A stretch of 64,000 nucleotides of DNA from a virus (IMGVR_UViG_3300025689_000001:58746-122745); one strand, 5' to 3'. Counted from the first letter of the stretch, positions 32,743-53,550 are shown. The notes: generated from the letters alone by a model not told the origin. Numbers and translations are program-made.

Positions 32743-33116
32743 GCAGAGGGGTCCTGTTCTCGGAGATTTAGGGGTGTCTGTCCGGGAGGGGACATGTCGA
32801 AAAATTTGCTCCATGAAAATTTGAGAGCAGGGGGTGCGGCTGATTATACTTTTGGTATAATTCAATTCTATGATACCCCCCGTCAGCCGCCGAAATTATA
32901 CAGACTGTATACCGCCACAAGCCTGTGGAGTTCGTCAAGCTGCACAAAAAGCAAGAGTTTTCAACACTATTTTTTTACACTGGAACGGCGAAAAATTATT
33001 AAAAACCTATTGACATTTGCTGTATATTGTGCTATAATATAGATACAGTCAAGGGAACGGCTGAGACGTCAAGCGGTTCACGACTGATAATATTTATTGA
33101 ATGGAGCGTGTTTTTT

Positions 33117-33626
33117 ATGACATTTGCAAACAAAATGTATCTTTACAAGTATTTCAAAGCTGTGGGAGCGGACGTTGTGGCTCTAGGTTTCCCTCTTTGC
33201 GGTTCTCACGATGTAGCGGTTATTCTGCTTTCAAAGTCCGACTTCATCGCTATTTCAGACGGTTACTTTGAAAAGCTGTCACCTGCTTGTAAGGACTTTA
33301 TGCGTCACGTTATCAAGTCCAAAAAGACCGACAATCATTTCCGCTTTAGCTTTAAGGCTAAAGACCTGCAATTCCTTGCAATCAGTGAGGGCAATACAAA
33401 CCTTGAACCTGTTTGCTCCGCTGATAGGTTTGAAGAAATCAAGACCGAAAATGCGGAGTTCCTGCATCAGAAAAACGCTGGATATGCTCTTGAAAGAGTT
33501 GTCTATGAAATGTTCGGTAGGGAGTGGAGTTGGAAGCATAAGGGCTGTGACCTGCAAGGCGTGGAACTGAATGGTGAGACTGTGAACATTGAAATCAAGT
33601 GGTTCAACGGTCAGGCAAAGAAGTGA
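33117..33626 (+). CDS. Hypothetical protein
   Basis: Preceded by TTGACA...TATAAT (33010-33038) and a GGAG SD. Confidence 0.7.
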   Translation: MTFANKMYLYKYFKAVGADVVALGFPLCGSHDVAVILLSKSDFIAISDGYFEKLSPACKDFMRHVIKSKKTDNHFRFSFKAKDLQFLAISEGNTNLEPVCSADRFEEIKTENAEFLHQKNAGYALERVVYEMFGREWSWKHKGCDLQGVELNGETVNIEIKWFNGQAKK

Positions 33627-33709
33627 GACAAGAGGTCAAGCAAGAGCCGAAAGGCTCTTGCAAGACCAGATCGAATAAGCTAACTGAATTAACGAAAGGA
33701 TTTGATTTA

Positions 33710-33952
33710 ATGAAAAATTTAACAATGGTGGAACTTATGCTCATGTGCCTTACTCCGCAGTTAGAAGTTGATAATGCTTGTCAGTATGTCAAGGCAGTAT
33801 GTGAGATAGTAAACCGCACAGAACGTCTGACAAGAGAACAGCGGAATGTTATTAAGGGCTTTTTAGAAGAATGTCAGATGTGGCACAGCACAAAAGACAA
33901 GATGTGGCTTGAATCGGCAATAGACCATTTGAACACATATATAAACGCATAA
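33710..33952 (+). CDS. Hypothetical protein
   Basis: SD GAAAGGA; followed by a hairpin terminator. Confidence 0.65.
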   Translation: MKNLTMVELMLMCLTPQLEVDNACQYVKAVCEIVNRTERLTREQRNVIKGFLEECQMWHSTKDKMWLESAIDHLNTYINA

Positions 33953-34045
33953 AGGGAAGCGGTCGAAAGACCGCTTTCTCTTAACATTTTGTTCCCACAC
34001 CACACCAACAAGTAAATCAATTAACTTAAAGAAAGAGGTATCATT

Positions 34046-34588
34046 ATGAATATGGTTAAATTAAACAACAAGCTCACAGCACAGGTTATCAGCTTTACGG
34101 AGGTTATGCAGTCATATCAGGGAATAGAACAGGCAAACAGTTTTTACACATATCACAGAGAGAATGGAGCAGAAGTCCTTGATATTGACTTTAGACTAAA
34201 GGTCAATGACAATGGTCTGATAGTATCAATCAATAAGAGTTATGACAGAGACGCTATTTCAGGCGGTCACTACACAGAGGACACACAGACAGAAGTTGAT
34301 ATAAACGCCCTTGAAACGTGGTTAGAAGATAACGGTATATATAGCAAACAGGCTCACAGCATAGCAAACAGGCTTTTTAATACAGTTCTTTGTATTGCAA
34401 TGTGGGAAGCAATGGAAACTGAATTTTATACAGCACTTTACACTGAATATCAAAAATGTTCGTGTGAAACTGAAACGGCGGTTAAAATCTTACTTGAAAA
34501 GTTAACTGATTTTACAGACCGCTACTATGTGCAAAAAGTTTGGTTAGAAATTCAGAAAAATGAAGAAGGAATAAACAAACTTTTCTGA
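34046..34588 (+). CDS. Hypothetical protein
   Basis: SD AGAGG; followed by a hairpin terminator. Confidence 0.7.
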   Translation: MNMVKLNNKLTAQVISFTEVMQSYQGIEQANSFYTYHRENGAEVLDIDFRLKVNDNGLIVSINKSYDRDAISGGHYTEDTQTEVDINALETWLEDNGIYSKQAHSIANRLFNTVLCIAMWEAMETEFYTALYTEYQKCSCETETAVKILLEKLTDFTDRYYVQKVWLEIQKNEEGINKLF

Positions 34589-35280
34589 AAAATCGGGAAC
34601 GGGATTGATAAAAAATCCCGTTCCTTTTTGTTTAGTCATACCCCGAACGGTGAAAAGTTATGAACAAAATGTGAATAAAGTTTTTTCATTTTACCAAACA
34701 ATAACGGTGAAAAGTTGTGAACAAAATATGAACAAACATACCCCATTTCGTTCATAGTTTGTTCATAAATTCTCACCGTTATAACGGTGAAAAGTTGTTA
34801 CGAAATTATGAATAAGTTAAAACTTTTTCCACTTTCACACGCTAAAGTGCTAAACCCCTAAAGTGGTAAAGCGTTAAAGTGTACCCGCTTTAGCACGTTA
34901 AAGTGCTAAAATGTTTTTCCCACTTTACAGCGTTAAAGCGAGCTGTGACCTGCAAGCTGTGACCTGTTAGCCACCCCTAACCTGTAAATCTTTAGCTGAG
35001 TTTGCGACCTGCTCCGAGCTGCTCCTGCTCCGTTATTTTGAACAGTTCCACCTCATTTATTATAAATGTTTTTGTGGATTTTGCACAACAATATATTATT
35101 ATATATATCTATATATAAATGTATAATACCCGTTGTGCATATTGTATATAAATCTATTTGCAATTTCTATTTCTTTGTGTAATATGTAGAAAAATGTTAT
35201 TATGACTTGACAAACCCCTTTTGATGTGATATAATATATATAGTAAAGGGGATAAACCCCTAAAGAAAGGACTTGATTAA

Positions 35281-35421
35281 ATGAAAAAGGTTAAATGGTA
35301 TCGCTACACATTCGCAGACGGTTGTGTCTCTATTGTAAGAGGTTACAGCAGACACGAACTCTCTATTATGGAGCGTGACCACGGCAAACTCATTTCCAAA
35401 GTGTTCGAGGGGTGGGCATAA
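35281..35421 (+). CDS. Small hypothetical protein (46 aa)
   Basis: Promoter TTGACA...TATAAT, SD GAAAGGA, MKKVKWYRYTFADGC... Confidence 0.6.
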   Translation: MKKVKWYRYTFADGCVSIVRGYSRHELSIMERDHGKLISKVFEGWA

Positions 35422-35599
35422 TGGACGGCAGAAAATGGTTGGGGTGGTGGATAGTCACCACTCCACAGGGCAAAGAGTACGCAACGGAATACTATGAGGG
35501 CGACACATACGACGAGGCTTAGCCGATGCAGTCGCCACATTTGGAGAGGGAACGACAGTCAAAAGTGGGCCGCCGTTCGCAAGTATCAAGGGTGATTAA
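35421..35599 (+). pseudogene. Small gene with an apparent 1-nt frameshift near 35520
   Basis: MDGRKWLGWW...YDEA then TAG; adding one T gives ...EALADAVATFGEGTTVKSGPPFASIKGD-TAA ending at the terminator. Confidence 0.4.
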
Positions 35600-35862
35600 G
35601 TTCACCCTTTTTACTTATTCATATTTCGTTCACATATTCTTACCGTTATAACGGAAAAGAAATATGAACAGACTATGAACACTCATTCGTCAGGTTGCAC
35701 AATTTCGCCGCCAGATTGTTGATAATCTTTTACACTCATAGGTATTGACATTTATATTATATTGTGGTATAATGGTTATAGTAAAGGAAAGGGAAAGGAA
35801 CGTAAACACACCGTTGAAGCAGTTCGCCTTTACATTATATAATGAATAGGAGTTGTTTATTT

Positions 35863-36108
35863 ATGAACGCAATCACACAGGACATTCTTAATATCAAGGT
35901 GGAGAACATCAACTACGCACTCGGTCTTACTTCTAACAAGTATTTCATTCAGAAAGCATACGGCGGCTATCGTCTGTGCAAGACAACAAACAGTGCAGGC
36001 GGTTGTGCAGACATTACAGAGCGTATGACCAAAAAGGAACTTGCAAAAGTTCTTGACGGTATTTATAATACCATTCGTGCAAGTGGACTTATGGCAACAG
36101 AAAAATGA
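35863..36108 (+). CDS. Hypothetical protein
   Basis: Own promoter, SD and terminator. Confidence 0.7.
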   Translation: MNAITQDILNIKVENINYALGLTSNKYFIQKAYGGYRLCKTTNSAGGCADITERMTKKELAKVLDGIYNTIRASGLMATEK

Positions 36109-36428
36109 CATCTTCAAAACACACTTCATTATAAAGACGGACGGCGGCAATAGTCGCCGTCTGTCGTTTACATTTTGTTCATAATTTCTCACCGTTATAA
36201 CGGAAAAAACTTATTACGAAATTATGAACAAAGTGTTAAAAAAGTTTTTTTATTTTACAAATAAAAGTCTACCCACGTTTAGAAACTTTGCACAAATAAA
36301 AGTTACCGTGCCACAGGATTTTGTGCATTCATACAAAAATATTTCTACCCTATTGACAAATACCCATTATGTAGTATAATAATAGTATCAAAGGGATACA
36401 CTCCCCCAACTGAAAGGACTTGATTTTG

Positions 36429-36806
36429 ATGAAAGAATTAACCAATGGAAACACCGCACATATCAATGAGTACACAAAGCGACTTTGCCAAATTCAAACA
36501 GATATGCTTGCAAGGTTAGAGGAACTAAAGCCGATACACTCCAAACTTGAAAGACAGATACAAGAGGTTTTGCATTTACTTGAATTTGAAATGCTTAACG
36601 CGCCACAAAGAGCAAAGGCAGTCAAGCGGCTAACAGATTTAAGAAAAGAAAGACGTATTGTCAAACAGGAAATATATGATATAAATCAGGCACTTAAAAC
36701 ATTTACTTTTCACGCAGACAAACAGCCAAAATGGGAATATCAAATGCAGTACACATACAGCACCGATACAGTCAAGGCTATTTTCGGAGAGGATAACGGC
36801 GAGTAA
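36429..36806 (+). CDS. Hypothetical coiled-coil protein
   Basis: Own promoter, SD and terminator. Confidence 0.7.
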   Translation: MKELTNGNTAHINEYTKRLCQIQTDMLARLEELKPIHSKLERQIQEVLHLLEFEMLNAPQRAKAVKRLTDLRKERRIVKQEIYDINQALKTFTFHADKQPKWEYQMQYTYSTDTVKAIFGEDNGE

Positions 36807-37022
36807 TCGCCGTTTTCTCTTAACATTTTGTTCACATTTTCTCACCGTTATAACGGGAAAGAAATATGAACAGACTATGAACAGGCAGTTGTGCAGATTG
36901 CACATAAAAAGAATAAAATTGTTGAAAATGTTTTACTTGACTTTTGGCTTGAAATGTGGTATTATATATATAGAGGGAAAAAGAAATACAATCCCCCGAC
37001 TTATAGAATGGAGTGTAGAACA

Positions 37023-37190
37023 ATGAGAAGAAGATTAAACAAAAAGCATTTAGTGGAGTTCATCATCGGTGCAATGGGTTGGCTTTGCATTATATGGTTA
37101 GTAGCAAGTGTCATTGATACCGATTTACACAACACAACACCGAATCCGATTTATGCGGATTGGAATATATTTAATATCTTATTTAATTAA
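37023..37190 (+). CDS. Small membrane protein
   Basis: One hydrophobic segment (FIIGAMGWLCIIWLVASVI). Confidence 0.6.
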   Translation: MRRRLNKKHLVEFIIGAMGWLCIIWLVASVIDTDLHNTTPNPIYADWNIFNILFN

Positions 37191-37206
37191 AAGGAGTTGT
37201 TTTATT

Positions 37207-37359
37207 ATGGTAATGGTAAGAAACAGAAAAGGCACATACGGACTGACAAAGGACGAGTTCAGAAATTATATGCGTTCTTTATGGGAGAGGGCACAGGCAA
37301 GGAAAGCCGCCCGTGCTGATATGCAGGCAATGAGAGAGGAAGAAAAGAAAAAGAATTAA
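37207..37359 (+). CDS. Small basic hypothetical protein
   Basis: SD AAGGAG. Confidence 0.6.
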   Translation: MVMVRNRKGTYGLTKDEFRNYMRSLWERAQARKAARADMQAMREEEKKKN

Positions 37360-37565
37360 CCAAATGGGAGCGATTAAGTTCGCTCCCTTAACTTATTCAT
37401 ATTTCGTTCACATATTCTTACCGTTATAACGGTAGAAAATAGTTACAAGACTATGAATAAATTAAAATAAAAACTTTTCTGAAATGGGTTGACATTTTCC
37501 TTGAAATGTGGTACAATAATAGTAGGGAAAGAATACCCCGAATAAATTTTAAGGAGCGTGTTTTT

Positions 37566-37862
37566 ATGAACGCAAATATGACAATGGCTTTTGAAGTCGC
37601 AAATACTTTCATTGAGGATTTTACTATTGACAGTAGAATCACCACACAGAAAAGAGGTAGCACAGTTATTATTGATGTTATCGAAAACGAAAAGAATCAG
37701 CACATTTTCATCTATCTTATTCAGTATCTTTCCAAACTCGGTTTCAGATTCCATGAAATGAGCAACTGGGGTTTTGCAGAGGACGGCGACTATGTTTATA
37801 CCCTCGGTACACCAAACGGCATTGTGGTTGTGAGAATTGCAGATGCCACATTGTGGAACTAA
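37566..37862 (+). CDS. Hypothetical protein
   Basis: Own promoter, SD and terminator. Confidence 0.7.
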   Translation: MNANMTMAFEVANTFIEDFTIDSRITTQKRGSTVIIDVIENEKNQHIFIYLIQYLSKLGFRFHEMSNWGFAEDGDYVYTLGTPNGIVVVRIADATLWN

Positions 37863-38308
37863 GCAGTCATTTTAAGGGCGGAGAAATCCGCCCTTTGTTT
37901 TATTTATTAACTCGTTCATAATTCTGTAACAATTTTTCACCGTTATAACGGTAGAAAAATATGAACAGAATGTGAATAAGTTAAATGAAAATTTTCACAC
38001 AATTTTCACATTCCTATCACACGGCTATCACAATAGTATGGTATAATGCCCCCTGCAAAAGGAATGAACTTTAGGGGGCTAAAGCGTTGAATTAGTCCTC
38101 GGCGGAGCTATGTCCTGCGACCTGTGACCTGCGGCGGAGCTGTGGGCTATCTCTCCCAGCGGAGCTGTGAGCTGCAATGAGCTGTGCAATTTGCACAAAA
38201 GGAGCTGCGAAATGAGCTGAGTTTTCTACTTGACAAGAGCTGCATTTTGTGGTATAATATAATCAGAAAAGGGAAAGGAAAATCCCAAACACCAGAAAGG
38301 AATTGATT

Positions 38309-38824
38309 ATGGATAAAAGAGAATTTGAAGCGTGGATTGACAGCAGACTTGACAGCTTCGCTCAGGTACTTCCCGAAAAACGTAGACCGTGGGTAGATAT
38401 GAGCCTTAAACTTCAGGACAAGAAAAGTTATCTGCTCACTTATCTGAACGCATATATCGGCAACTTCTTCATTCACTGCGACCTCATCACAAGAGAGACA
38501 ACAATCTTCAATACCGCTTCAAAGCATTCGGCTATTGCGAAATGCCGTATGGGAGAAGTGTTCAGCGTTCGTGACGGCGTGGCTATTGCGTGGGCAAAAT
38601 ACAATCACGAGGTTGTGCCTGACTATTCACTTTCTATTTCGAGAGAGGAACTTGTAAACGGTGACAAGTTTATCAGTTCTATCAACAAGAATCACATTCT
38701 TGTTTTCATCGGTTGGATTCCCAATACAAGAAACGGTATGACAGGCAAGTGGGCGGTTGCTCTTGACGATAACCGCAGACCAATCAAAACACAAATCGCA
38801 AATGAAGTTGTCAAGGTAGAGTGA
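38309..38824 (+). CDS. Hypothetical protein
   Basis: Own promoter and SD; shares the AKC..(D/E).(F/Y)....G..IA motif with 40484-41155. Confidence 0.7.
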   Translation: MDKREFEAWIDSRLDSFAQVLPEKRRPWVDMSLKLQDKKSYLLTYLNAYIGNFFIHCDLITRETTIFNTASKHSAIAKCRMGEVFSVRDGVAIAWAKYNHEVVPDYSLSISREELVNGDKFISSINKNHILVFIGWIPNTRNGMTGKWAVALDDNRRPIKTQIANEVVKVE

Positions 38825-39000
38825 TAGTCGGGGCGGTTCGCCGCCCCACACTTTGTTCATAATTTCTTACCGTTATAACGGCAGATAAATATGAACAAGT
38901 TAAATGAAAAAATTTTTAGAAAACACTTGACAAATCATTTCTTTTGTGGTATAATATAATTACAGTAAAGGACAGAAGTCCAATGAAAGGAATTGATTTT

Positions 39001-39345
39001 ATGAATAATATTCACGGTTTTGTTTATGGTTACAAACTCACTTCTCAGGAATTTGAGAAACTCTATTGTGCGTGGTTAGAAGATGAACGAGATGAAGAAG
39101 TGCTTCTCAACTATGTGTGGGAGATTGATGATAACACCAAAATCGTATGTATGAACATTCTCATTATCAATGATGAAGAAGATAACAGCGTTCACTCTTT
39201 CAATGATATAAACAAAATCATTGCAGAGAAAAGAAGTGAGACAGACACATTCTTTGACTTGTTTACACCATTCTTCAATCAGTCACTTACCACTAACATC
39301 TTTAACACATTACCGCAAATCTTTTACATAAACGTATCACTGTAA
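39001..39345 (+). CDS. Hypothetical acidic protein
   Basis: Own promoter, SD and terminator. Confidence 0.7.
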   Translation: MNNIHGFVYGYKLTSQEFEKLYCAWLEDERDEEVLLNYVWEIDDNTKIVCMNILIINDEEDNSVHSFNDINKIIAEKRSETDTFFDLFTPFFNQSLTTNIFNTLPQIFYINVSL

Positions 39346-39564
39346 GCAACGGGCGGCGAAAGCCGCCTGCTCCTCATTAAAACTTTGTTCATAATTTCTT
39401 GCCGTTGTAACGGTAGAAAGTTGTTACAAAATTATTACGGCAACCCCAGTAAATGTTTTCGTCATTTTCACCAAAACTCACCCCACTTTGTTGAAAATGT
39501 TTTGCTTGACATTTACCCCTACTTGTGATATAATATAATTACAGAAAGGAAAGGTGATACCCCG

Positions 39565-39726
39565 ATGAAAGAGTTGAAAACTATGACCAAAAAGGAACGC
39601 AAGGCATATTACAGCCAGTTCCGCAACACTTGGTCTATCAACCCCCTTACTCGAAAGGAAAATAAGAATAAGTATAAGGAGCGTGTTTATCGTGAGAAAG
39701 AGAGATGTGACAGAGAGACGGTTTAA
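39565..39726 (+). CDS. Small basic hypothetical protein
   Basis: SD AAGGTGA after the promoter. Confidence 0.5.
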   Translation: MKELKTMTKKERKAYYSQFRNTWSINPLTRKENKNKYKERVYREKERCDRETV

Positions 39727-39877
39727 GTGTACTGAATGTAATGTGGTTATGACTGCATATAAATCCAGTGCAAGAAGAATGTCAGATGGACATATTAAGA
39801 CAATGTATTGTCCGTGGTGTAAGAAAGAAACTAACTTTGTGCAGTTTCGTTATGAGTTTCAGTTAGAAAGGAATTGA
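39692..39877 (+). CDS. Zn-ribbon protein resembling ribosomal protein bL33
   Basis: CTEC...KTMYCPWCKKETNF; size and Cys spacing as in Zn-binding bL33. Confidence 0.5.
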   Translation: MRKRDVTERRFKCTECNVVMTAYKSSARRMSDGHIKTMYCPWCKKETNFVQFRYEFQLERN

Positions 39878-39882
39878 TTGTT

Positions 39883-40146
39883 ATGTTATTTAAGAGGAAG
39901 TCAAAGGGAAAAGAAGTACAGACACAGGACGTTTTTGTTCATAAGTTTATTTTTTTTAATAGTGATGTAGTAGTCGCTATCGACAGCATTAAAGCAGTCA
40001 TTCGTGACAAAAATAAGATAGAGATTATATACAAAAGCAATGCAAAAATAACAAGTACGATTGTTTTTTATGATAAGGAAGAAAGTGCAATGGAGATAAT
40101 GAGACAGTTAGGATATAATTTAAATCTTGAAACAATAGTATTATAA
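39883..40146 (+). CDS. Hypothetical protein
   Basis: SD GAAAGGA; terminator follows. Confidence 0.65.
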   Translation: MLFKRKSKGKEVQTQDVFVHKFIFFNSDVVVAIDSIKAVIRDKNKIEIIYKSNAKITSTIVFYDKEESAMEIMRQLGYNLNLETIVL

Positions 40147-40483
40147 GAAAATGGGCGGTTCGCCGCCCGTTCATATTTTGTTCATAATTTCTTATTGTTA
40201 TAACGGAGAATAAAAATGAACAGAATGTGAATAAATTAAATGAAAAAATTTTTGAAAACTCCTTGACAAATTCAAATTGTTGTGGTATAATAATATCAGA
40301 GTTAAGGCAACGGACTTAACCGCCACACAAAAGGGCAGAGAAAATTAAATGAAAAAATTTTTGAAAACCCCTTGACAAAATCAAAAAAGTGTGGTATAAT
40401 AAAGGTACAGTAAGGGAAACCCCTACTGAATAAATCAAAACAGTGACGAGTACAACACTTAAAAACCGGAAAGGAATACTACT

Positions 40484-41155
40484 ATGATGAACGCAAAGGA
40501 AATCGCTATGAACGCAATCGCAAAGGCAAAGGCTGACTGGGTAAAGGCTATGACTGAGGACTTCTACGCTGACGAGAAGAAGAACCCTCTCAACATCGGC
40601 GCTATCGGTGTGGGCAACACTATCATCGTGGCATACGCTGACAGCGTGGACGAGCCGCTTATCGGTGTTGCAAAGTGCAATCCGACTGACCGCTATGACC
40701 GTGAAATCGGTATCGCAATCGCATACGCAAGGGCAATCGGCGAGGATATTCCCGACTATGTTCTTGACAGCACTATCTCTCTCGGTGAGGACGAGGACGA
40801 CTGGGACGATGATGACGACTGGGACGATGATGACGACTGGGACGATGACGAGGACGACAGCGATGACGAGGACGACAGCGATGACTGGGACAGCGATGAC
40901 GATGATGACGACTGGGACGATGACGATGACGACTATGACGAGGATTATGTCGAATTCGGTGAAATCGATATTGGTGGTAAGTTCGTCTACGTCGGCGACC
41001 TCTATATCAAGGTGAGCGATAGCGAGGCATACCGCTATGAGGACCAGATGACATGCGTCCTTGGCGAGGCTGGACATGGGCCTTTTAAGAAAGTCGCAAA
41101 ACGCAACGCAAGGCAAGACAAGAGGTCAAGAAAGGATGATAATTATGACAGATAA
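40484..41155 (+). CDS. Hypothetical protein with a long Asp-rich (DDDDDW) repeat tract
   Basis: Tandem 18-nt units (GACGACTGGGACGATGAT) at ~40790-40945. Confidence 0.75.
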   Translation: MMNAKEIAMNAIAKAKADWVKAMTEDFYADEKKNPLNIGAIGVGNTIIVAYADSVDEPLIGVAKCNPTDRYDREIGIAIAYARAIGEDIPDYVLDSTISLGEDEDDWDDDDDWDDDDDWDDDEDDSDDEDDSDDWDSDDDDDDWDDDDDDYDEDYVEFGEIDIGGKFVYVGDLYIKVSDSEAYRYEDQMTCVLGEAGHGPFKKVAKRNARQDKRSRKDDNYDR

Positions 41156-41531
41156 GGAAATTAAACAGCGTTTAAGAGAAATCGAAACACGCAAAGTTCA
41201 TCAGTGTGCAATGGCACTGAAAGCAAAAGGACTTTTCACAAGTGAGGAACTCACTCAGACACTCAGAGAATACGGCGTTGCTCGAGCATACTTTGAACAG
41301 CTTTACCACCTTGAATGGTGCTATGAGTGGATAAAAGAGGGAGAAATGACTTTTGAGGAGTTTATAAGAGACTTCATTTTCAGAACTAATGGCGACAGAA
41401 TTTTCCGTGACAGCATTGATTCAGACAAATATGTAAACAAATACAGACTTAACGGCAATAAGGTTGAACACTATGAACAGTGGTACAGATACCGCATTGC
41501 TTTTCAGAAAAAAGAATTTCTTAACATCTAA
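41145..41531 (+). CDS. Hypothetical protein
   Basis: SD GAAAGGA. Confidence 0.7.
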   Translation: MTDKEIKQRLREIETRKVHQCAMALKAKGLFTSEELTQTLREYGVARAYFEQLYHLEWCYEWIKEGEMTFEEFIRDFIFRTNGDRIFRDSIDSDKYVNKYRLNGNKVEHYEQWYRYRIAFQKKEFLNI

Positions 41532-41807
41532 AATGAATGGGCGGTTCGCCGCCCGTTCACACTTTTGTAACTATTTTCTACCGTTATAACGGAGAAAACT
41601 TATTACAAACTTTCAACACTTTCAACAACCGCCTGCTCCGTCATTATGCACAAATTCAATCCCTATTCTTTGTGCAATATTTTTCTCGAAAAGGTATTGA
41701 CAAAAAAGAAAAGATGTGATATAATATAGGTACAGTAGGGGAAACGGAAACCCTACTGAATACAATCAATGAGAGCCGAACTCACCAAACGGAGAATGGA
41801 GTTAATT

Positions 41808-42200
41808 ATGACTACAAAAGAAATGCTCAATGCCGTTATCAATGGCGAAATCACAGACGAAGTCAAGGCAAAAGCAACTGAAATGCTCGCCGCCGCAGAG
41901 AAGAAGAACACAAAGAGAGCCGAAGCAACCGCAGAAAACCGCTCCGCAAATGCCGCACTCGCCGCTGAAATCGTGGCAGTTATGGCTGACGGTACGGAGT
42001 ATTCCGCCGCTGAACTGCTCCCCCTCATCTCCGCCGCTCACTCCGAAATCACAAAGAACAAAATCGCTTCCGTTATGGCAGTAGCCAAAGAGGACGGACT
42101 TGTCGAAATCAATCCCGAATACAAAGAGGGCGGCAAAGGCAGAAAGAAGAATGGTTACAAGAAGCTCACGGCGGCAACAGAGGAAGTCGAAACAGAGTAA
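41808..42200 (+). CDS. Hypothetical protein, family A (possible winged-helix)
   Basis: Paralogue of 44656-45048 and 59517-59882 (MTTKEML...GGKGRK..GY). Confidence 0.75.
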   Translation: MTTKEMLNAVINGEITDEVKAKATEMLAAAEKKNTKRAEATAENRSANAALAAEIVAVMADGTEYSAAELLPLISAAHSEITKNKIASVMAVAKEDGLVEINPEYKEGGKGRKKNGYKKLTAATEEVETE

Positions 42201-42409
42201 GCCTATGGGAGCGGTAGAAATACCGCTCCACTCCCCTGTTCATTTTTTGTTCATAATTTCTCACCGTTATAACGGACGATAAATGTTACGAAATTGTGAA
42301 CAAAGTATGAATAAGTTAAAAGAAAAAATTTTCAAAAACCCCTTGACAAACTTCAAAAGATGTGGTATAATATAATTGTTCCAAAGGGAACAGAAAGGAA
42401 TGATTACTT

Positions 42410-43477
42410 ATGGCAGAACATTTTATGACTGGTATTTCAAAAGAGGGAAGTGTTATTCTCATTACTCTGAATGACCGCCCTAACCCTATCAAGTATAACT
42501 GCAATACTGGTGAACTCACTTCATTCACTGGTAGAGCAGTAAAGCACTTTCCGCAGTCCTGTACTATCGATGATGTAAACGAGGGTGAACGGTGGGCAAT
42601 CAATACCGTTCGTGAACGTATTAAGTGCGGTATGACTTGCGAATTTCGCAAACTTGAATTGTTTATCGCAGTCCTTGACCTTGTTCGCAATCCGTACAGT
42701 CTTCCTAGTGAGTGTCCTCAGGGATATATCAAGTGGGTGCGTGACAACGGCAAAGACATTTCCGTTGATACCCTCGGCGAATTTCGCATTGAACAGAACA
42801 TCAACAAATTATCCAAAGAGGATAAAGAGGTCTATGAAAAACTCCGCACCGCTTTCAGTTTTAACGACAGACTGATTGAATGGTGGGTAAAGGAAGAAAA
42901 CACCGTTCTCCGTCAGAAATTCCGTCAGATGTTTAAGGCAACAATCAAGTGCTTCACTTGGAATATGTATGATGATTTATACACTTGGTATAGATTTTTC
43001 ATCGGCACCAACAGCGGTCGGCGTGTATGGGGTGACAACTGGGTTGAAAATCTTGACGGCAACAGAGATTTCCGCTATAATGTGAACACTTGCGAACAGC
43101 AGAGGGATAAAGTCAGAAATGACAAAATCCTTGCTAATGAAGAAAAAATCCGCAGTATCACGGAAATTGAGAGCAATGACTTTGTTATCATTGTACCGTC
43201 AGAAATGGACGATTTCACCAAAGAGGGGCAAATGCAGAATAACTGTGTAGGCTCACACTATCACGACAGCATTGCCGCAGGCGACAACCTCATTTACTTT
43301 ATCCGCAAAAAGGCAAGTCCAAACCATTCATATATTACAAACCGTTATAGCACTTGTTGTGGTAGAACAGTCGAAACAAGAATGATTAACAACAGAGACA
43401 ACACCGACAACAAAGCACTTGCATTGATTGAAATTATTGACAAGAAAATCACCGAATTGCTCAAAGCAAAGGAATAA
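42410..43477 (+). CDS. PcfJ-like domain protein, family B
   Basis: C-terminal IVP....F.KEGQMQNNCVG.HY.......IYFIRK; paralogue of 45287-46426. Confidence 0.7.
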   Translation: MAEHFMTGISKEGSVILITLNDRPNPIKYNCNTGELTSFTGRAVKHFPQSCTIDDVNEGERWAINTVRERIKCGMTCEFRKLELFIAVLDLVRNPYSLPSECPQGYIKWVRDNGKDISVDTLGEFRIEQNINKLSKEDKEVYEKLRTAFSFNDRLIEWWVKEENTVLRQKFRQMFKATIKCFTWNMYDDLYTWYRFFIGTNSGRRVWGDNWVENLDGNRDFRYNVNTCEQQRDKVRNDKILANEEKIRSITEIESNDFVIIVPSEMDDFTKEGQMQNNCVGSHYHDSIAAGDNLIYFIRKKASPNHSYITNRYSTCCGRTVETRMINNRDNTDNKALALIEIIDKKITELLKAKE

Positions 43478-43674
43478 AAATGACTGGCGGTCAGAAATGA
43501 CCGCCACATTTTGTTCACAATTTGTTCACATTTATTCACCGTTATAACGGACGATATTCATTACAGAATTGTGAATTTGTTAAAAGAAAAAATTTTCAAA
43601 AAGGTATTGACAAAATGACAAAGTTGTGGTATAATATAGGTGTACCGTAGAGGTACGGAAAGGAATGATGTGCA

Positions 43675-44430
43675 TTGTATAAAATTAAAAATCTTTTCGG
43701 TAGTGTTGCAAGCCTTATGACTTCAAAGCGTGAAAAAATTATCGTGCTTGACGTTGAGGGTTATTCAACTTGCCGTCCGTATAATGTTGGTTACATAGTC
43801 GCTGACTTATATGGAAATGTTTACCGTAAGCGTTCATTCGCTCTGCTCCCTTGTATATGGGAAAATATCGTTTCAATGGTCAATTCTCGCTCCGCTGAGG
43901 AAATGACAAAAAAGAACGTAGAGGAAATTTTGAGGGATATTGAACTCCCTAAACACAAAAGAAAATATCAGCCTATATCCCCCGAAAAATTCGCTGACAT
44001 TTTCACCGCTGACGTTCAAAATTTTAAGGTCAAAAGACTTTTCGCTTATAACGTCAATTTCGATAAAGGTAGTATAAAGCGACTTTTAGGCATTGAAAAG
44101 TTTATGGCTCTCAATCTTGAATACTGCGATATTATCAGCGGTATCGTTTACACAAGACTTTTAACAAAACAGTATGTTGAATTTTGCAAGGCTCACGACT
44201 TTATCACGGAAAAAGGAAACGTAATGACAAAAGCGGAAATCGTGATAAAATATTTAACTGGAAATCTCGACTATGAAGAAGAACATACTGGACTTGCTGA
44301 CGTAATGGACGAATACTTAATTCTTTTAACTGCTCTATCTGCTCACAAAAAAATTGACTGGAAACCGTGCGTAGCGTGGAGATTGTTAAAAAATTTTGCA
44401 GAGGAAAAAGGTATCGCTTTAACGGGGTAA
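43675..44430 (+). CDS. DEDDh 3'-5' exonuclease, family C
   Basis: VLDVEG, AYNVNFD, EEHTGLADV. Confidence 0.8.
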   Translation: MYKIKNLFGSVASLMTSKREKIIVLDVEGYSTCRPYNVGYIVADLYGNVYRKRSFALLPCIWENIVSMVNSRSAEEMTKKNVEEILRDIELPKHKRKYQPISPEKFADIFTADVQNFKVKRLFAYNVNFDKGSIKRLLGIEKFMALNLEYCDIISGIVYTRLLTKQYVEFCKAHDFITEKGNVMTKAEIVIKYLTGNLDYEEEHTGLADVMDEYLILLTALSAHKKIDWKPCVAWRLLKNFAEEKGIALTG

Positions 44431-44655
44431 AGTGAGGCGGCGAAAGCCGCTTCACATTTTGTTCACAATTATCCCCCGTTATAACGGAAGAAACTTATTA
44501 CAAAACTATGAATAAATTAAATGAAAAAATTTTTGAAAACCCCTTGACAAATTCAAATTGTTGTGGTATAATATAGGTACAGTAAAGGTAAGGAACACCG
44601 ATACTGAATAATGAATAGGTCAAGGACAGACCGAAAAACCAGAAAGGAAAATACT

Positions 44656-45048
44656 ATGACTACAAAGGAAATGCTTACTTCTGTTATCAACGGCACTATC
44701 AATGACGAGGTTAAGGCAAAGGCAAGGGAAATGCTTGCAAGTGCCGAGAAGAAGAACGGCAAGCGTGCTGAACAATCCGCTGAAAATCGCTCCGCTAACC
44801 TTGCTATCGCCGAGGTTATCAAGTCCAAGATGAAGAAGAACGTCACCTACGCCGCAAGTGAGATTGTCACTCTCATTGCCGCTGAGTACCCCGACATTAA
44901 GACCGCCAAGATTACTCCTGTTATGGCTGTCGGTATTGAAGAGGGTATGTTCACAAAGGTCGATGATTACAAGGTCGGCGGTAAGGGCAGAAAGGTCAAC
45001 GGCTACACAGCAGTTGTCGCCGAGGACACCGAGAACACCGAGAATTAA
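44656..45048 (+). CDS. Hypothetical protein, family A
   Basis: Paralogue of 41808-42200. Confidence 0.75.
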   Translation: MTTKEMLTSVINGTINDEVKAKAREMLASAEKKNGKRAEQSAENRSANLAIAEVIKSKMKKNVTYAASEIVTLIAAEYPDIKTAKITPVMAVGIEEGMFTKVDDYKVGGKGRKVNGYTAVVAEDTENTEN

Positions 45049-45286
45049 ACCCACTGGGGCAGTAGGAATACTGCCCCAAACTTATTCATATTTTGTTCAC
45101 AAATTCTTTCCGTTATAACGGTAGATAAATGTTACGAAAATGTGAACGAATTGTGAATTAGTTAAATGAAAAAATTTTCAAAAAGGTATTGACGAATCGT
45201 TTCAGATATGGTATAATAACAATGTAGTCAAGAGGACTACACAATAAAGTCACGAAAGACTTAAAAACGGAAAGGAATTGATTGCT

Positions 45287-46426
45287 ATGTCAAGAGTTTT
45301 TAACATCACTGGAATTGAGAAGAACGGTCTTATTGTTACCGTAACTATCGAGGGCAAGGCTAATCCTGTCATTTTCGATATGGCACACCTCAGCTTCACT
45401 TCATACACTGGTAGAGATATTCAGCGTTTCCCTGTCGGCTCTTATTGTCTGTCTGAGGACGGCTTTTCGGGTATTATCCCGAAACTTCTTTTCAACGCTT
45501 TACTGTCTGGCAGTAAGGGCGATGTAAGAAGCAATCTCAGCAAGTTAGAGCTTTTCATCAACAACCCCGAAATTCTCGGCACTATTCGCGATTGTAGTGA
45601 ACTTGCTGACGAGTGCCCGAAAGGTTTTATCAAGTGGCTGAAAGATAATAACAAAATGCCGACAAAAGAAAATCTCACCGACTATAAAAGGGGAATGGCA
45701 TTAAAGAGAATGACACAAGAAGATAAAGAAGTTTATGAACTTCTTTTCGTAGGTGAAAATTCTCCCTACTCTCAGCTTGATAGAGTTTGGTATAACGACA
45801 CTTACAAAGAGTGCTATTTCTCAATGAGTGCCGAACTCCGTCACAAATTCAACAAAATTCTGAAAGTATCTATCAAAGCACTTTCGTGGCAACTGAAAGA
45901 CGAAATGACAACTTTTATTGATAGATTTATCAGAAATATAGGTTGGAGCAGTTGGCTTGACGAGTGGCGTGACGAGTGGCGTCGCCCCGATAACTGGGAA
46001 GAACTGTTAAACACTAACAGAACTTTCAAGTGGAATACTGAAAACATTATTGCTAATGCAAGAAAAGAAATGGAAAACAAAATCATTAAAAATGAAAACA
46101 AAATCCGTGCTATCGAGGAACTTTCAAATGACACTTTTGTTGTTGTCGTTCCGAAAACTTTACAGGACTTTACAGACGAGGGCAATATGCAACATAATTG
46201 TGTAGGACATTTCTATCACAGCAGTATTGCAAACGGCGAAAATCTTGTTTACTTTATCCGCAAAAAGTCAACTCCTGATCGTTCATACATCACAAACAGA
46301 TATATGATAATGAGACACGAAACTGTTGAAACGAGAAAGTTTGCTAATGCTTACAATGACGATGATGAAGCAAAGGCATTGATTAAAGAAATTGACAAAA
46401 TGATTACATCTCTCCTTTCGGAGTAA
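45287..46426 (+). CDS. PcfJ-like domain protein, family B
   Basis: DEGNMQHNCVGHFY...VYFIRK. Confidence 0.7.
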   Translation: MSRVFNITGIEKNGLIVTVTIEGKANPVIFDMAHLSFTSYTGRDIQRFPVGSYCLSEDGFSGIIPKLLFNALLSGSKGDVRSNLSKLELFINNPEILGTIRDCSELADECPKGFIKWLKDNNKMPTKENLTDYKRGMALKRMTQEDKEVYELLFVGENSPYSQLDRVWYNDTYKECYFSMSAELRHKFNKILKVSIKALSWQLKDEMTTFIDRFIRNIGWSSWLDEWRDEWRRPDNWEELLNTNRTFKWNTENIIANARKEMENKIIKNENKIRAIEELSNDTFVVVVPKTLQDFTDEGNMQHNCVGHFYHSSIANGENLVYFIRKKSTPDRSYITNRYMIMRHETVETRKFANAYNDDDEAKALIKEIDKMITSLLSE

Positions 46427-46624
46427 TCATATCGGGGCGGTAGGAATACCGCCCCACCTTTCGTTCATAATTTGTTCACATTTATTTACCGTTATAACGG
46501 ATAAAAATAGTTACAAGACTATGAATAAGTTAAATGAAAAAATTTTCAAAAACCCCTTGACAAACCGCAGAGAATATGTTATAATAAGGCATACTCTAAA
46601 GAGAGTATAGAAAGGAATGATACT

Positions 46625-47068
46625 ATGTACGATTTCAATGAATGCAAAAAGGGATCAAACCCCACAAAAGACAAAGCAAGGGAAATTCTCTTGTCAGACC
46701 TGGAAGAATTTCTCACTGAAAAGTACGGAGCGGAGCAGAGCTCACAAGTGGACGGAAATATGTACGCTGTTTGCTTGGGTACTCGCACACTCGCAGACGG
46801 AACAGACGGAGAAGTTTGTTGTACCATTGAAGTGGTAGCAAAGGAGTTTGATGTTCGTGTGGCGGAGAGGTCCGGCAAAGTCTTTCGGCCCTATGAGAGA
46901 ATAAGAGAAGAAGAAGAATACACTCGCAAGGTGGAGCAGTCAAAGGCAAAGGCAGAGGAGAACAAACGCAAAAAGGAAGAGAAAGCCGCAAAGGACAAGA
47001 AAGCAAGAGAGGAGAGAGCAAAGGCAAAAGCCGGAAAGAGACAAGAAATTCTCGGAGATGAAACATAA
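46625..47068 (+). CDS. Hypothetical protein, family D
   Basis: Paralogue of 58948-59370 (L.EKYG, DGE....V..KEF, charged tail). Confidence 0.7.
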   Translation: MYDFNECKKGSNPTKDKAREILLSDLEEFLTEKYGAEQSSQVDGNMYAVCLGTRTLADGTDGEVCCTIEVVAKEFDVRVAERSGKVFRPYERIREEEEYTRKVEQSKAKAEENKRKKEEKAAKDKKAREERAKAKAGKRQEILGDET

Positions 47069-47297
47069 TTAACAAAAGGGAACGGACTGAACATCCGTTC
47101 CCCTCATTTATTTTTCGTTCACAATTTCTTTCCGTTATAACGGTACAAAAATATTACAGAACTATGAACAAAGTGTGAATTGATTAAATGAAAAAATTTT
47201 CTCAAACCCCTTGACAAAATCCGCAAAGTGTGTTATAATAATAATGTCATAAGGAACAGACTAAACTAACCCCTTATACAGAAAGGAATATAATATA

Positions 47298-47975
47298 ATG
47301 GTAACAATCAACGGAAAGTTAATCCGCAGAAAGTTATTTCTGATTGTCGATACAGAGACTTTCAACGGATTCGACGAGCCTATTGTCTATGACATTGGCT
47401 TCGCAGTCATTGACAGGACAGGACAGGTATACGCAAAGTATAGTTTTGTTGTCCATGACACATTCATCGGTATGGCAGAACAGGCGGCGACTGCCTATTA
47501 TGCAAACAAGTTTCCGCAGTATCACGCAGATTTACGGGCAGGTCGGCGCAGACTTGCTACATGGGCGCAGATTATACAGATTGTAAATGCCTTGCTTGAA
47601 AAGTGGGACATTTCAGATGTAGTCGCCCATAATGCAAACTTCGATTGTAGGTCTACAAACCATACAAGCCGACTGCTTCACTACAATTCATTTTTCAAAC
47701 GTCACGTTGAATGGTGGGACACTCTGCAAATGGCGGCTGACACTATCTGCAAACAGAAAACATATATCCGCTTCTGTCAAGAAAATGGTTATATGACACG
47801 CAATAGAGTTCCCAGACCGCAGATGAAAGCAGAGGTCATTTACAGGTACATTACAGGCAATAACACTTTCATCGAAAGTCATACAGGTTTAGAGGACTGT
47901 ATGATAGAGAAAGAAATTTTCGCAAAGTGTTGCCGACAGCATAAGAAAATGAGACACACATTCTATGTGTTCTAA
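47298..47975 (+). CDS. DEDDh 3'-5' exonuclease, family C
   Basis: IVDTET, AHNANFD, ESHTGLED. Confidence 0.85.
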   Translation: MVTINGKLIRRKLFLIVDTETFNGFDEPIVYDIGFAVIDRTGQVYAKYSFVVHDTFIGMAEQAATAYYANKFPQYHADLRAGRRRLATWAQIIQIVNALLEKWDISDVVAHNANFDCRSTNHTSRLLHYNSFFKRHVEWWDTLQMAADTICKQKTYIRFCQENGYMTRNRVPRPQMKAEVIYRYITGNNTFIESHTGLEDCMIEKEIFAKCCRQHKKMRHTFYVF

Positions 47976-48199
47976 ATCCGAGCGGTGAGGTAGGAATACT
48001 TCACCGCTTTTTTGTGCTAAAGTAAGTTAAATGTGTTGACTTGTTCATATTCTTGTAACAAATTTCTACCGTTATAACGGCGAAAATTTATGAACAAAGT
48101 GTGAACATTCCTACTATTCCGATAGGTTTAGTAGGATTACCGTTCCGCCCCTCGTCGTCCTTCCTTCTCCCCTCCCCTACGTCATGCATCGACGTATTC

Positions 48200-48395
48200 T
48201 CGGTGGAAGTTCAAATGAGCTGCAATGAGCTGCATCGACGCGTAAAGGAGCTGCACTTGTAGGAGCTGCGTCGCCACGAATTTTGGAGCTGCGTCGCAAG
48301 GAGCTGCAAATGAGCTGCATTTTCCCCTGTTTTTCCAGCGCAGCGACGTAAAATTGCACAAAAATAGCCCATTTCTGCGCAAATGAGCTGCAAAA
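48200..48395. repeat. GAGCTGC direct-repeat cluster
   Basis: About 8 copies of (AT/AG)GAGCTGC; related clusters at 34939-35030 and 38105-38243. Confidence 0.75.
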
Positions 48396-49039
48396 TGGAC
48401 CAAACAACGCCTATATGCTATTTATATTTATATTTCCCCTCTCATTATAACATAATTTTTACAAAAAGTCAAGCAATTTGAGCCAAAAAATTTTTAAAAA
48501 GAAAAGAACTTGACACAAAAATGTCAAGAACTTGGGCGCCGCGGCGAGAAATTAACGAAAACTGCCGCGTTCTGAAAAGATTTGAGTCAATAGCTTGACA
48601 AAACACCTTATAAAAAAAACTTTATTTTTTATCGATGTGGATGCGCGAACACGACTTTGAGGTGCGGCGAGAATTCAACCGTTCAAAATCTCTTATTATA
48701 TTATATAATTATAGGCTTGCCTATGATTATTTCCTTGTAAATTTGCTGTGAAATTCCGTCCAAATTTCATGCCAAAAATGCGCCAGAGATTTCCTCTATT
48801 ATATACTATTGTTGTCAAGCAAATTCATTGTAATTTACATTGATGACGACGTCGCCTAGCCCAAAAATTCATAGGTGCGTTTTCGGAGAGTTTTGGGTGA
48901 GTTTGTAGGGGATTGAAACGTTATCGTTATGGCAAGGGATAGTGGGCGTCCTCACCATTTGCACTTCCGGCACCACTTAACGCCTTTACAGACTCTTGAT
49001 TATAGCTCGGGTTACTGCTCGTCAGGACACAGCAAGCAC

Positions 49040-49470
49040 TTATACCCTTCCTACCACCCCTTCCATCTAAATCCTTCCCTTCCCCTTTTACCGCAATTTG
49101 CCCTTCCCTTCCCTTCCCTTCTTATTTACTTTATTAACTTATATCTTCCCTTCCTTTTCTACTACTTCCCTTCCCCTTCCCTTATAATTCTCTTCCCTTA
49201 CTTAACCCTTCCCTTCCCTTTCTTATTATTACTATTATTATTATACTATAATCCCTTCCCTCAACCCTTCCCTTTTCATTCCAATCTTCTTCCTTTCCCT
49301 TTTCATTCCAATCTTCTTCCTTTTCCTTTTTTACTCCTTCCCTTCCTTCCCAATCAAAACCTACACTACTCCTTTTGCTTCCCTTCCCTTCCCATTGCAT
49401 TCCTGCTTCGCCGCCGTACTTGACCCTAATTCCCACTTATACCTCCCTTCTTTCCCTTACTTATTTATAA
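49040..49470. repeat. Polypyrimidine (CCCTT)n low-complexity tract
   Basis: Seen directly in the sequence. Confidence 0.85.
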
Positions 49471-50413: not shown

Positions 50414-50432
50414 TCCTCTCTCACCTCACGCA

Positions 50433-50921: not shown

Positions 50922-50936
50922 TTGGCACCCTCCCTT

Positions 50937-51983: not shown

Positions 51984-52044
51984 TTTCTATAATAATTATA
52001 GCAAAAATTATAGAAAATGTAAAGAGATAAGGGGCTCAAAATTT

Positions 52045-53463: not shown

Positions 53464-53550
53464 TTATTTAATCATTCCTTTCCTTACTTTCTATAATAAT
53501 TATATCATAATTTTTAAGAATTGTAAAGAAAGAAAATTCTCAAAAATTAT

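What the first reader, a model, noticed from the sequence alone, without database searches (positions are those of the whole stretch)
35600..46530. Left and right arms of the repeat assort independently, a footprint of crossover at the core
Seen: copy 35643 shares its left arm (ACTTATTCATATTTCGTTCACATATTCTTA, plus the GATTAAGTTC terminator loop) with copy 37421, but its right arm (AAAGAAATATGAACAGACTATGAAC) with copy 36845. Copy 37421 shares its right arm (AAAATAGTTACAAGACTATGAATAA) with 46489, whose left arm (AATTTGTTCACATTTATT) matches 43539. Right arms of 42264 and 45110 match (GATAAATGTTACGAAA) while their left arms differ. Inference: strand exchange has occurred repeatedly within the central palindrome.
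Basis: partly seen in the sequence, partly recalled or inferred. Interest (0 to 1): 0.75.

Follow-up and report, generated by a model that had tools for sequence, protein, structure and literature searches.

The report
Shuffling joints between phage early genes
Seventeen copies of a ~70-letter near-palindromic DNA element separate the small early genes of an uncultured gut or rumen phage; related phages have lost, gained and swapped these genes by recombination inside the boundary regions, sometimes in the central palindrome but more often beside it, much like the known 'PeSL' cassettes of T4-type phages.

Summary
All six quoted strings occur exactly twice, at the stated copies. Left and right arms of the 17 CCGTTATAACGG elements have unrelated similarity patterns (Mantel r=0.13; partition-homogeneity p=0.0025; best single breakpoint at the core).

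82 metagenome and MAG loci carry several hundred further copies of the element. Against them I resolved 13 recombinant junctions. Four are window copies: 36845 and 37421 (crossover in or next to the core), 43539 (+10..+19) and 46489 (+49..+54). Only 3 of the 13 intervals include the core. The rest lie in the terminator hairpin, the arm half-sites, the A-tract or the promoter, including two events with 100%-identical flanks.

Three further results argue against integron-like site-specific exchange. No tyrosine or serine recombinase lies on two ~183-kb phage contigs that carry 27-28 copies. The arms show no hairpin covariation. Every cassette has its own promoter.

Best reading: a composite terminator / phased palindromic operator-like element / sigma-A promoter module. 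Its dispersed short homology drives cassette deletion, insertion and replacement. This is a PeSL-like system in a TAG-recoded Firmicutes-type phage. The protein that reads the invariant palindrome is unknown. The scan has already noted similar palindrome-jointed cassette arrays in other phages.

The parts
33008..48110 (+). Early-gene cassette block. It holds about 16 self-contained units (sigma-A type promoter, 1-3 small genes that are mostly ORFans, GC hairpin terminator) and is flanked by minus-strand TAG-recoded late genes.
34741..34814 (+). Element copy 1 (core 34776-34787).
35608..35681 (+). Element copy 2 (core 35643). Its left arm and the terminator loop are identical to copy 37421; its right arm is like copy 36845.
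36157..36230 (+). Element copy 3 (core 36192).
36810..36883 (+). Element copy 4 (core 36845). It is a resolved chimera: the left side is like L087:2145, the right side like L036:4658, and the switch lies within -2..+3. It is a junction that lacks cassette family 12 of the relatives.
37386..37459 (+). Element copy 5 (core 37421). It is a resolved chimera: the left side is like L036:5232, the right side like L036:6212, and the switch lies within -8..+1. It lacks cassettes 54 and 10 of L036.
37905..37978 (+). Element copy 6 (core 37940). The left inner half-site is of GTAAC type.
38835..38897 (+). Element copy 7 (core 38870). The right arm has one half-site only, an 11-bp deletion, so the promoter lies 11 bp closer.
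39367..39440 (+). Element copy 8 (core 39402, one mismatch: CCGTTGTAACGG).
40160..40233 (+). Element copy 9 (core 40195, two mismatches). The downstream promoter stretch 40228-40292 is 64/65 identical to 44509-44573 although the right arms differ. A second tandem promoter copy lies 109 nt on.
41546..41619 (+). Element copy 10 (core 41581).
42229..42313 (+). Element copy 11 (core 42264). It has three right half-sites. It is the paralogous junction of copy 45110.
43504..43577 (+). Element copy 12 (core 43539). It is a resolved chimera: the left side is like L057:6250, the right side like L076:4820, and the switch lies within +10..+19, in the right inner half-site.
44441..44514 (+). Element copy 13 (core 44476). 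It is the boundary between the two copies of a tandem three-cassette duplication.
45075..45159 (+). Element copy 14 (core 45110). It has three right half-sites.
46454..46527 (+). Element copy 15 (core 46489). It is a resolved chimera: the left side is like L064:1920, the right side like L035:2214, and the switch lies within +49..+54, in the A/T tract before the -35.
47097..47181 (+). Element copy 16 (core 47132). It has three right half-sites.
48034..48107 (+). Element copy 17 (core 48069). It is the last copy, at the convergent end of the block.
34644..34740 (+). Two right-half elements (ACGG followed by an arm with two phased TGAAC half-sites) lying before the first full copy.
   Evidence: (D16)
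41581..48080 (+). Tandem segmental duplication with a period of about 2848 nt. The paralog pairs are 41769-42200 / 44611-45048, the PcfJ-like genes 42410-43477 / 45278-46426, and the phrog_20187 genes 43675-44430 / 47298-47975. One extra cassette (46625-47068) sits in the second copy.
   Evidence: (D10, D15)

Best explanation
The 17 repeats are the middle part of a composite intergenic module that bounds every early-gene cassette. The module runs, in order: GC hairpin terminator; a ~70-bp element with an invariant 12-bp palindrome flanked by GTTCAY/GTAAC half-sites spaced 11 bp apart in mirror arrangement; an A/T-rich UP-like tract; and a consensus sigma-A promoter.

Shown: the element is two-fold symmetric only at consensus level. 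Its individual arms do not covary. It sits at quantised, helically phased distances from the -35. It is invariant across several hundred copies in related phage contigs.

Inferred: it is a docking site on double-stranded DNA for a still unidentified, probably phage-encoded, oligomeric regulator of the early promoters.

Shown: because the module is repeated every 0.4-1.4 kb in direct orientation, copies recombine with one another, within a genome and probably between co-infecting relatives, wherever a short run of identity exists. This deletes, inserts or replaces whole cassettes and leaves chimeric joints. The independent assortment of left and right arms is the footprint of this process. The core holds the longest shared run in most copy pairs and is the best single breakpoint among the window's own copies, yet it holds only 3 of the 13 crossovers resolved against relatives.

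Inferred: the exchange runs on general short-homology recombination or template switching, not on a dedicated site-specific recombinase.
For: The element is conserved in 330 exact cores in 60 metagenome loci. It also occurs as 27-28 copies confined to single 182.6-kb and 184.3-kb phage contigs of two MAGs, with none elsewhere in those MAGs.

The pooled consensus has a mirror-symmetric information profile, r=0.82. Core-to-(-35) spacing peaks at 46, 57, 68 and 79 bp. There is no arm covariation: pooled mirror identity is 16.06 vs 16.07+-0.12, and native hairpins are no more stable than chimeric ones.

The arms are incongruent. The 305 cassette bodies fall into 73 families with 116 distinct adjacencies, and 24 of 68 families have more than one right neighbour. 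Thirteen three-way recombinant joints have switch intervals from -52 to +71, and 3 of them include the core. The longest exact run spans the core in 86 of 136 pairs, with a median of 14 nt.

No PF00589 or PF00239 hit lies on G000, on G001-G004, or on the two full-size phage contigs. The cassette genes are almost all ORFans. PeSL modules of T4-type phages behave in the same way (PMC2839356; PMC4122927).
Against: No binding protein was found: HTH_3 gave sub-threshold hits only, and ParB gave none. No RecA or RecT family recombinase was detected in these phages, so the recombination machinery is unassigned. The shared runs are short (median 14 nt), below what RecA-type exchange usually needs.

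Thirteen junctions are few, some are reciprocal views of the same variants, and the direction of each change (deletion or insertion) cannot be polarised. The core-centred minimum in the window, with 3 of 13 intervals falling on 12 of about 140 nt, leaves room for some core-specific stimulation.
Confidence: 0.68

Rival explanations
1. This is an integron-like site-specific system. An unrecognised recombinase exchanges strands inside CCGTTATAACGG, and the joints seen outside the core are later homologous events or conversion tracts.
For: The 12-bp palindrome is invariant. The best single breakpoint among the window copies is at the core. Two window junctions switch within the core. The overall look is that of an array of cassettes separated by palindromes.
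Against: Ten of 13 resolved switch intervals exclude the core, including two with 100% identical flanks, that is, recent events. No tyrosine or serine recombinase lies on G000, on its relatives, or on two full-size phage contigs with 27-28 copies. The arms do not covary as folded attC sites do. Each cassette has its own promoter and terminator.
Confidence: 0.08
2. The core is the target of a phage-encoded sequence-specific nuclease or nickase. Breaks at the core start recombination-dependent repair or replication, so exchange points scatter on both sides of the core.
For: The switch intervals are spread roughly symmetrically around the core, with a median near it. The palindrome is invariant. 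The genome carries homing-type endonucleases, for example the HNH/NUMOD protein at 30959-31285.
Against: A nuclease that cuts its own genome 17-28 times would need a protection mechanism that was not seen. The helical phasing with the promoter and the flanking half-site array point to a regulator. No candidate enzyme could be linked to the site.
Confidence: 0.12
3. There has been no exchange. The arms merely converge on a small set of allowed binding-site variants, so the shared strings are functional convergence.
For: Much of the within-window incongruence comes from a two-state inner half-site; without it p=0.08. The half-site types assort independently in the pooled set.
Against: The 30-nt identity plus the identical terminator loop between 35643 and 37421 includes non-consensus positions. 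Each arm clusters beyond column-shuffled controls. Explicit three-way chimeras exist with 92-100% identical flanks extending into different cassettes.
Confidence: 0.03
4. The element is a small selfish mobile palindrome (MITE- or REP-like) that inserted between genes, and the mosaicism reflects independent insertions.
For: The core motif is lineage-specific: relatives G002-G004 lack it and use other palindromes at the same kind of position. Orthologous cassettes carry different boundary motifs in G004.
Against: Conservation is highest in the centre, not at the ends. No target duplications or terminal repeats were noticed on reading the copies (no dedicated search was made). The orientation is fixed and the distance to promoters is phased. 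No transposase was detected, although only integrase-type families were searched.
Confidence: 0.05

Closest known systems
PeSL (promoter-early stem-loop) regulatory cassettes in hyperplastic regions of T4-type phages (Arbiol et al. 2010, PMC2839356; Comeau et al. 2014, PMC4122927)
   Same: Both are a repeated ~100-bp intergenic module that combines a terminator hairpin, an AT-rich tract and a strong host-type early promoter. Both sit in front of ORFans. Indels and replacements between related phages map to the module and are attributed to homologous recombination across its ~100 bp, not to a site-specific enzyme (searches compared).
   Different: Here an extra ~70-bp element lies between terminator and promoter, with an invariant 12-bp palindrome and 11-bp-phased mirror half-sites. 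The phage is a ~160-185 kb TAG-recoded phage with Firmicutes-type promoters, not a T4-type myovirus of Gram-negative hosts. Related lineages use different boundary palindromes. Mini-circles have not been tested.
Integron cassette arrays (attC sites recombined by IntI)
   Same: Both are a tandem array of small gene cassettes separated by imperfect palindromes, with cassette gain, loss and re-ordering.
   Different: There is no IntI-type or other known site-specific recombinase. The arms do not covary as a folded hairpin. The crossovers are not at one fixed position. Every cassette has its own promoter and terminator.
Dispersed operator sets of a single regulator: stoperators of cluster A mycobacteriophages, and KorB operators of IncP plasmids (from general knowledge, not checked here)
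   Same: Many copies of one short conserved site lie in intergenic regions with fixed orientation or geometry relative to transcription. This implies coordinated control by one DNA-binding protein.
   Different: No cognate protein has been identified here. The sites lie about 100 bp upstream of the start, not over the promoter or inside transcription units. Flanking phased half-sites are present.
Conserved boundary or 'linker' sequences between modules of lambdoid phages (modular-evolution model; from general knowledge, not checked here)
   Same: Short conserved sequences at gene boundaries serve as preferred points of homologous exchange.
   Different: The system here is far more regular, with 17-28 near-identical joints in one array, and it is tied to a regulatory element.

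Membership tests
PeSL-type composite terminator/promoter shuffling modules | A repeated intergenic motif that joins a stem-loop terminator, an AT-rich tract and a sigma-70-type early promoter. | tested here: met
   A GC hairpin, an A/T tract and TTGACA-N17-TGnTATAAT lie at nearly every copy.
PeSL-type composite terminator/promoter shuffling modules | The motifs are concentrated in a variable region of small genes of unknown function. | tested here: met
   All copies lie in one 13-kb block. The cassette proteins have no known function, apart from the PcfJ-like and phrog_20187 families.
PeSL-type composite terminator/promoter shuffling modules | Insertions, deletions and replacements between related phages have their breakpoints in the module. 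| tested here: met
   All 13 resolved chimeric joints lie within -52..+71 of the core, and there are many alternative cassette adjacencies.
PeSL-type composite terminator/promoter shuffling modules | Recombination between nearby modules yields excised mini-circles. | not testable with these tools
   This needs phage lysate DNA and outward PCR or long reads.
Integron (attC x IntI) | An IntI-type tyrosine recombinase is encoded with the array. | tested here: not met
   PF00589 is absent from G000-G004 and from the two full-size phage contigs. The MAG hits lie on other contigs.
Integron (attC x IntI) | The sites are conserved as folded hairpins (arms complementary within each copy) more than in sequence. 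| tested here: not met
   Native arm pairs are no more complementary than shuffled pairs, and the sequence of the core is invariant.
Integron (attC x IntI) | Crossover occurs at one fixed position of the site. | tested here: not met
   The switch intervals range from -52 to +71, and 10 of 13 exclude the core.
Integron (attC x IntI) | Cassettes are mostly promoterless and expressed from a common promoter. | tested here: not met
   Each cassette has its own consensus promoter.
Multi-copy operator set of one regulator | Many copies of a conserved site lie at fixed geometry to promoters. | tested here: met
   The spacing is quantised at 46/57/68/79 bp, the orientation is fixed and the core is invariant.
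Multi-copy operator set of one regulator | A cognate sequence-specific DNA-binding protein exists. | tested here: inconclusive
   No HTH_3 hit exceeds the cut-off and there is no ParB hit. The neighbouring proteins are unannotated. The motif is absent from the rest of the two MAGs, so a host regulon is unlikely.

The most novel reading that the evidence does not exclude
The invariant palindrome is read by a phage protein that both sets early-promoter activity and pairs or nicks the copies. The array would then be a recombinase-free, integron-like cassette exchange system. The lineage-specific palindromes (CCGTTATAACGG here; GGCCCGGGCC with GTTAG-N6-CTAAC, or CTTTA-N6-TAAAG, in relatives) would act as compatibility 'barcodes' that decide which co-infecting phages can trade early genes.
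Probability: 0.15. Interest if true: 0.8.

Novelty: new variant of a known kind. Interest (0 to 1): 0.45.

Why it matters
Early 'host-takeover' genes are the fastest-changing part of large phage genomes, and how they turn over is known in detail only for T4-type phages. This work gives nucleotide-level evidence that a quite different group uses the same logic. The group is ~160-185 kb, TAG-recoded, and probably infects Ruminococcus-like gut or rumen bacteria. In it, self-contained cassettes are exchanged at repeated regulatory joints.

It adds a feature that PeSLs lack: an invariant, helically phased palindromic element whose sequence differs between sister lineages. That gives a concrete handle for finding the regulator, for testing whether regulation and gene exchange are coupled, and for using the joints as markers of cassette boundaries when mining phage ORFans such as anti-defence genes.

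Tried and rejected
Searches that led nowhere:
- Megablast of the block against GenBank phages gave no match.
- Two left-arm-plus-core patterns in viral contigs gave only single chance hits or none.
- A relative search with a cassette protein found nothing.
- The exact motif in the literature turned up only an unrelated crystallography oligonucleotide.
- Whole metagenome records could not be searched.

Readings rejected:
- An RNA or single-stranded DNA hairpin role is rejected, because native arm pairs are not more complementary than shuffled pairs.
- Integron membership is rejected (see the membership test).

Candidate machinery or readers not found: tyrosine and serine recombinases, RecA, RecT, ParB and HTH_3.

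Resemblances of the half-sites to DnaA boxes, Rex or CRP half-sites and SinR operators were recalled from memory, were not testable here, and are not relied on.

Pairwise change-point mapping on moderately diverged pairs gave broad, noisy boundaries. I replaced it with three-way chimera mapping.


Full report
WHAT IS THERE. The window is the 3' 64 kb of a 122.7-kb IMG/VR phage contig that is estimated to be 75% complete. Between 33.0 and 48.1 kb a plus-strand block interrupts minus-strand late genes. It holds about 16 self-contained units. Each unit has a near-consensus TTGACA-N17-TGnTATAAT promoter, one to three small genes and a GC hairpin. Seventeen copies of a quasi-palindromic element lie between each terminator and the next promoter. 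Fifteen have the exact core CCGTTATAACGG, one has one mismatch and one has two, against 1.17 such matches expected by chance. There is no copy elsewhere in the contig.

In the alignment the element reads as follows. The left arm has an outer half-site GTTCAT, an inner half-site 11 bp further in (GTTCAY, or TGTAAC in 3 copies), then TTCTYA. The core follows. The right arm is the mirror image, with inner ATGAAC or G/ATTAC and outer TRTGAAY. One copy has one right half-site and three copies have three, always in 11-bp steps.

THE OBSERVATION.
- Arm similarity is non-random within each arm relative to column-shuffled controls.
- It is unrelated between arms. Mantel r=0.125, p=0.20, and no copy has the same nearest neighbour on both sides.
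- Half-arm blocks are linked within an arm (r=0.30, p=0.007 on the left; r=0.18, p=0.05 on the right) but not across the core (r=-0.07).
- A partition-homogeneity-type test gives 120 steps against 132.2+-2.9 for random partitions (p=0.0025). The right-arm columns fit the left-arm tree no better than label-shuffled trees.
- The best contiguous split of the columns is at the core.

Two cautions apply. When the two-state inner half-site columns are removed the test weakens to p=0.08. Of the named pairs, only 35643/37421 (0 vs 10 mismatches) and 46489/43539 are individually discordant. The pair 42264/45110 is not: these are paralogous joints of a tandem three-cassette duplication, 41.6-44.5 kb against 44.5-48.1 kb.

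IS THE CORE THE EXCHANGE POINT? Inside the window, terminator-to-left-arm and right-arm-to-promoter similarities are as uncoupled as the two arms are (r=0.10 and 0.05). The promoters after copies 40195 and 44476 are 64/65 identical although their right arms differ. This already suggested a patchwork that extends beyond the core.

The decisive data came from relatives. A pattern scan of metagenome contigs returned 60 loci with 330 exact cores arranged in the same kind of array. A scan of species genomes returned 22 more loci, including two phage-sized contigs of 182.6 and 184.3 kb that were binned with Ruminococcus and Ca. Fimenecus MAGs. These carry 28 and 27 copies, and the rest of each MAG carries none.

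I oriented all arrays by their promoters and clustered 305 cassette bodies into 73 families. The order is broadly collinear but has many presence/absence differences and replacements. There are 116 distinct adjacencies, and 24 of 68 families have more than one right neighbour, up to seven.

I then looked for joints whose upstream flank matches one relative (at least 92%) and whose downstream flank matches another. In each such joint I located the switch between informative sites. This gave 13 non-redundant chimeric joints. Their switch intervals are:
- -52..-43 (terminator hairpin, 100% identical flanks)
- -41..-37
- -39..-35
- -36..-35
- -27..-23
- -16..-10 (left inner half-site, 100% identical flanks)
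- -8..+1 (window copy 37421)
- -4..+2
- -2..+3 (window copy 36845)
- +10..+19 (window copy 43539)
- +49..+54 (window copy 46489, in the A/T tract)
- +53..+54
- +69..+71

Exchange between copies is therefore documented, including for four of the window's own joints. Only 3 of the 13 intervals include the core. This fits homology-guided exchange. The longest exact in-register run shared by two window copies spans the core in 86 of 136 pairs (median 14 nt). In the other 50 pairs it lies in an arm, the A-tract or the promoter.

AGAINST AN INTEGRON-LIKE SYSTEM.
- No tyrosine or serine recombinase domain is detectable in six-frame searches that read through stop codons, either of G000 or of four relatives found by terminase, one of which is 100% complete.
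- In the two MAGs all such hits lie on contigs other than the phage contigs.
- Individual arms do not covary. In 362 unique elements the mirror identity of native arm pairs is 16.06 of 30, against 16.07+-0.12 for shuffled pairs. In the window, native hairpins are not more stable than chimeric ones. The palindrome therefore exists at consensus level, as for a two-fold symmetric protein site, and not as a folded attC-like or RNA hairpin.
- Each cassette has its own promoter.

WHAT THE ELEMENT PROBABLY DOES.
- The pooled information profile is mirror-symmetric (r=0.82). Positions -13/-11 and +11/+13 are invariant.
- The element is nevertheless polar. The inner left site is of TCA type in 69% of copies and the inner right site of TAA type in 72%.
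- The distance from the core to the -35 is quantised at 46, 57, 68 and 79 bp. The promoter-proximal half-site therefore keeps its place, and the core stays on one face of the helix.
- Sister lineages lack this core. At the equivalent position they carry other palindromes: GGCCCGGGCC with GTTAG-N6-CTAAC (15-18 copies each in G002 and G004) or CTTTA-N6-TAAAG (11 copies in G003). Some cassettes are orthologous between lineages.
- The motif is absent from the remaining ~2.3 Mb of both MAGs.

Together these points favour a phage-encoded, lineage-specific DNA-binding regulator of the early promoters. That is an inference, because no candidate protein was found. RecA and RecT family recombinases were also not found, so the enzymes behind the exchange are unassigned.

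COMPARISON WITH WHAT IS KNOWN. The closest described system is the PeSL module of T4-type phages. It is a ~100-bp terminator/AT-tract/early-promoter motif that flanks ORFans in hyperplastic regions. Its authors attribute indels between sister phages to homologous recombination across the motif, and they place one crossover in the AT-rich part (PMC2839356; PMC4122927). The array here works like that.

It differs in three ways: the phage group, the added invariant phased palindrome, and the lineage-specific identity of that palindrome. The motif itself does not appear in the searchable literature. Notes from this scan report comparable palindrome-jointed arrays in other phages, including a GCCCGGGC-jointed gut or rumen phage and a TAG-recoded sheep-gut phage with a phased palindrome. 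Their conclusions agree with mine, but I treat them as leads only.

VERDICT. I class this as a new variant of a known kind.

Noticed in passing
window 1-32700 and 50000-64000 (minus strand); tRNAs at 62586-62739: The late genes are open only if TAG is read through. For example, the portal gene 26333-27925 gives 530 aa and the terminase gene 27922-29724 gives 600 aa. Two adjacent tRNA genes with anticodon CTA lie at 62586-62660 and 62664-62739. None of 23 early-cassette genes ends in TAG (18 TAA, 5 TGA).
   Followed up: partly
window 34822-35200: A non-coding 'hub' follows the first element. It holds about 8 CTAAAGTG/CTTTA-N6-TAAAG motifs, one GTTAGCCACCCCTAAC, two AGCTGTGACCTG repeats and an AT-rich stretch. 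The first two are the boundary palindromes that sister lineages (G003; G002/G004) use throughout their arrays. The contig of relative G001 breaks in the equivalent place after five left-half elements (GTAAC-N6-GTAAC-CACCGTTATA). It could be an origin or a regulatory hub.
   Followed up: partly
window 48110-50050: A 2-kb non-coding region lies at the convergent end of the block. It holds about 9 GAGCTGC repeats (48200-48400), CCCTTCCCTT repeat families (49060-49400), AAAGTTTTTCC repeats (49520-49640) and long AT-only stretches. Its function is unknown.
   Followed up: no
window 52045-53463 (-): The phage encodes a BrxL-like Lon-related ATPase (Pfam BrxL_ATPase E=3.5e-90, BrxL_N E=3.5e-12). This protein family is known from the bacterial BREX defence system.
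   Followed up: no
window 40484-41155 (+): An early cassette protein has a ~70-residue run made almost only of D, E, W and S. It is encoded by 9/18-nt tandem repeats at 40769-40972. It could be a DNA mimic or another acidic decoy.
   Followed up: no
window 40233-40419: The cassette after copy 40195 has two tandem near-identical promoters 109 nt apart (40233-40310 and 40342-40419).
   Followed up: no
window 30959-31285 (-): A small HNH / I-HmuI-NUMOD-like homing endonuclease gene lies just upstream of the terminase region.
   Followed up: no
L094-L117 (G006:C65 182.6 kb; G007:C38 184.3 kb): Full-size relatives of this phage are binned inside MAGs named Ruminococcus sp. and Ca. Fimenecus sp.; smaller pieces sit in Acutalibacteraceae and Clostridia MAGs. 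This hints at hosts in the Oscillospirales, consistent with the Firmicutes-type extended -10 promoters.
   Followed up: partly
window 42410-43477 and 45278-46426 (+): Two paralogous early cassettes encode PcfJ-like proteins (Pfam PF14284, E about 1e-15). Their function is unknown.
   Followed up: no
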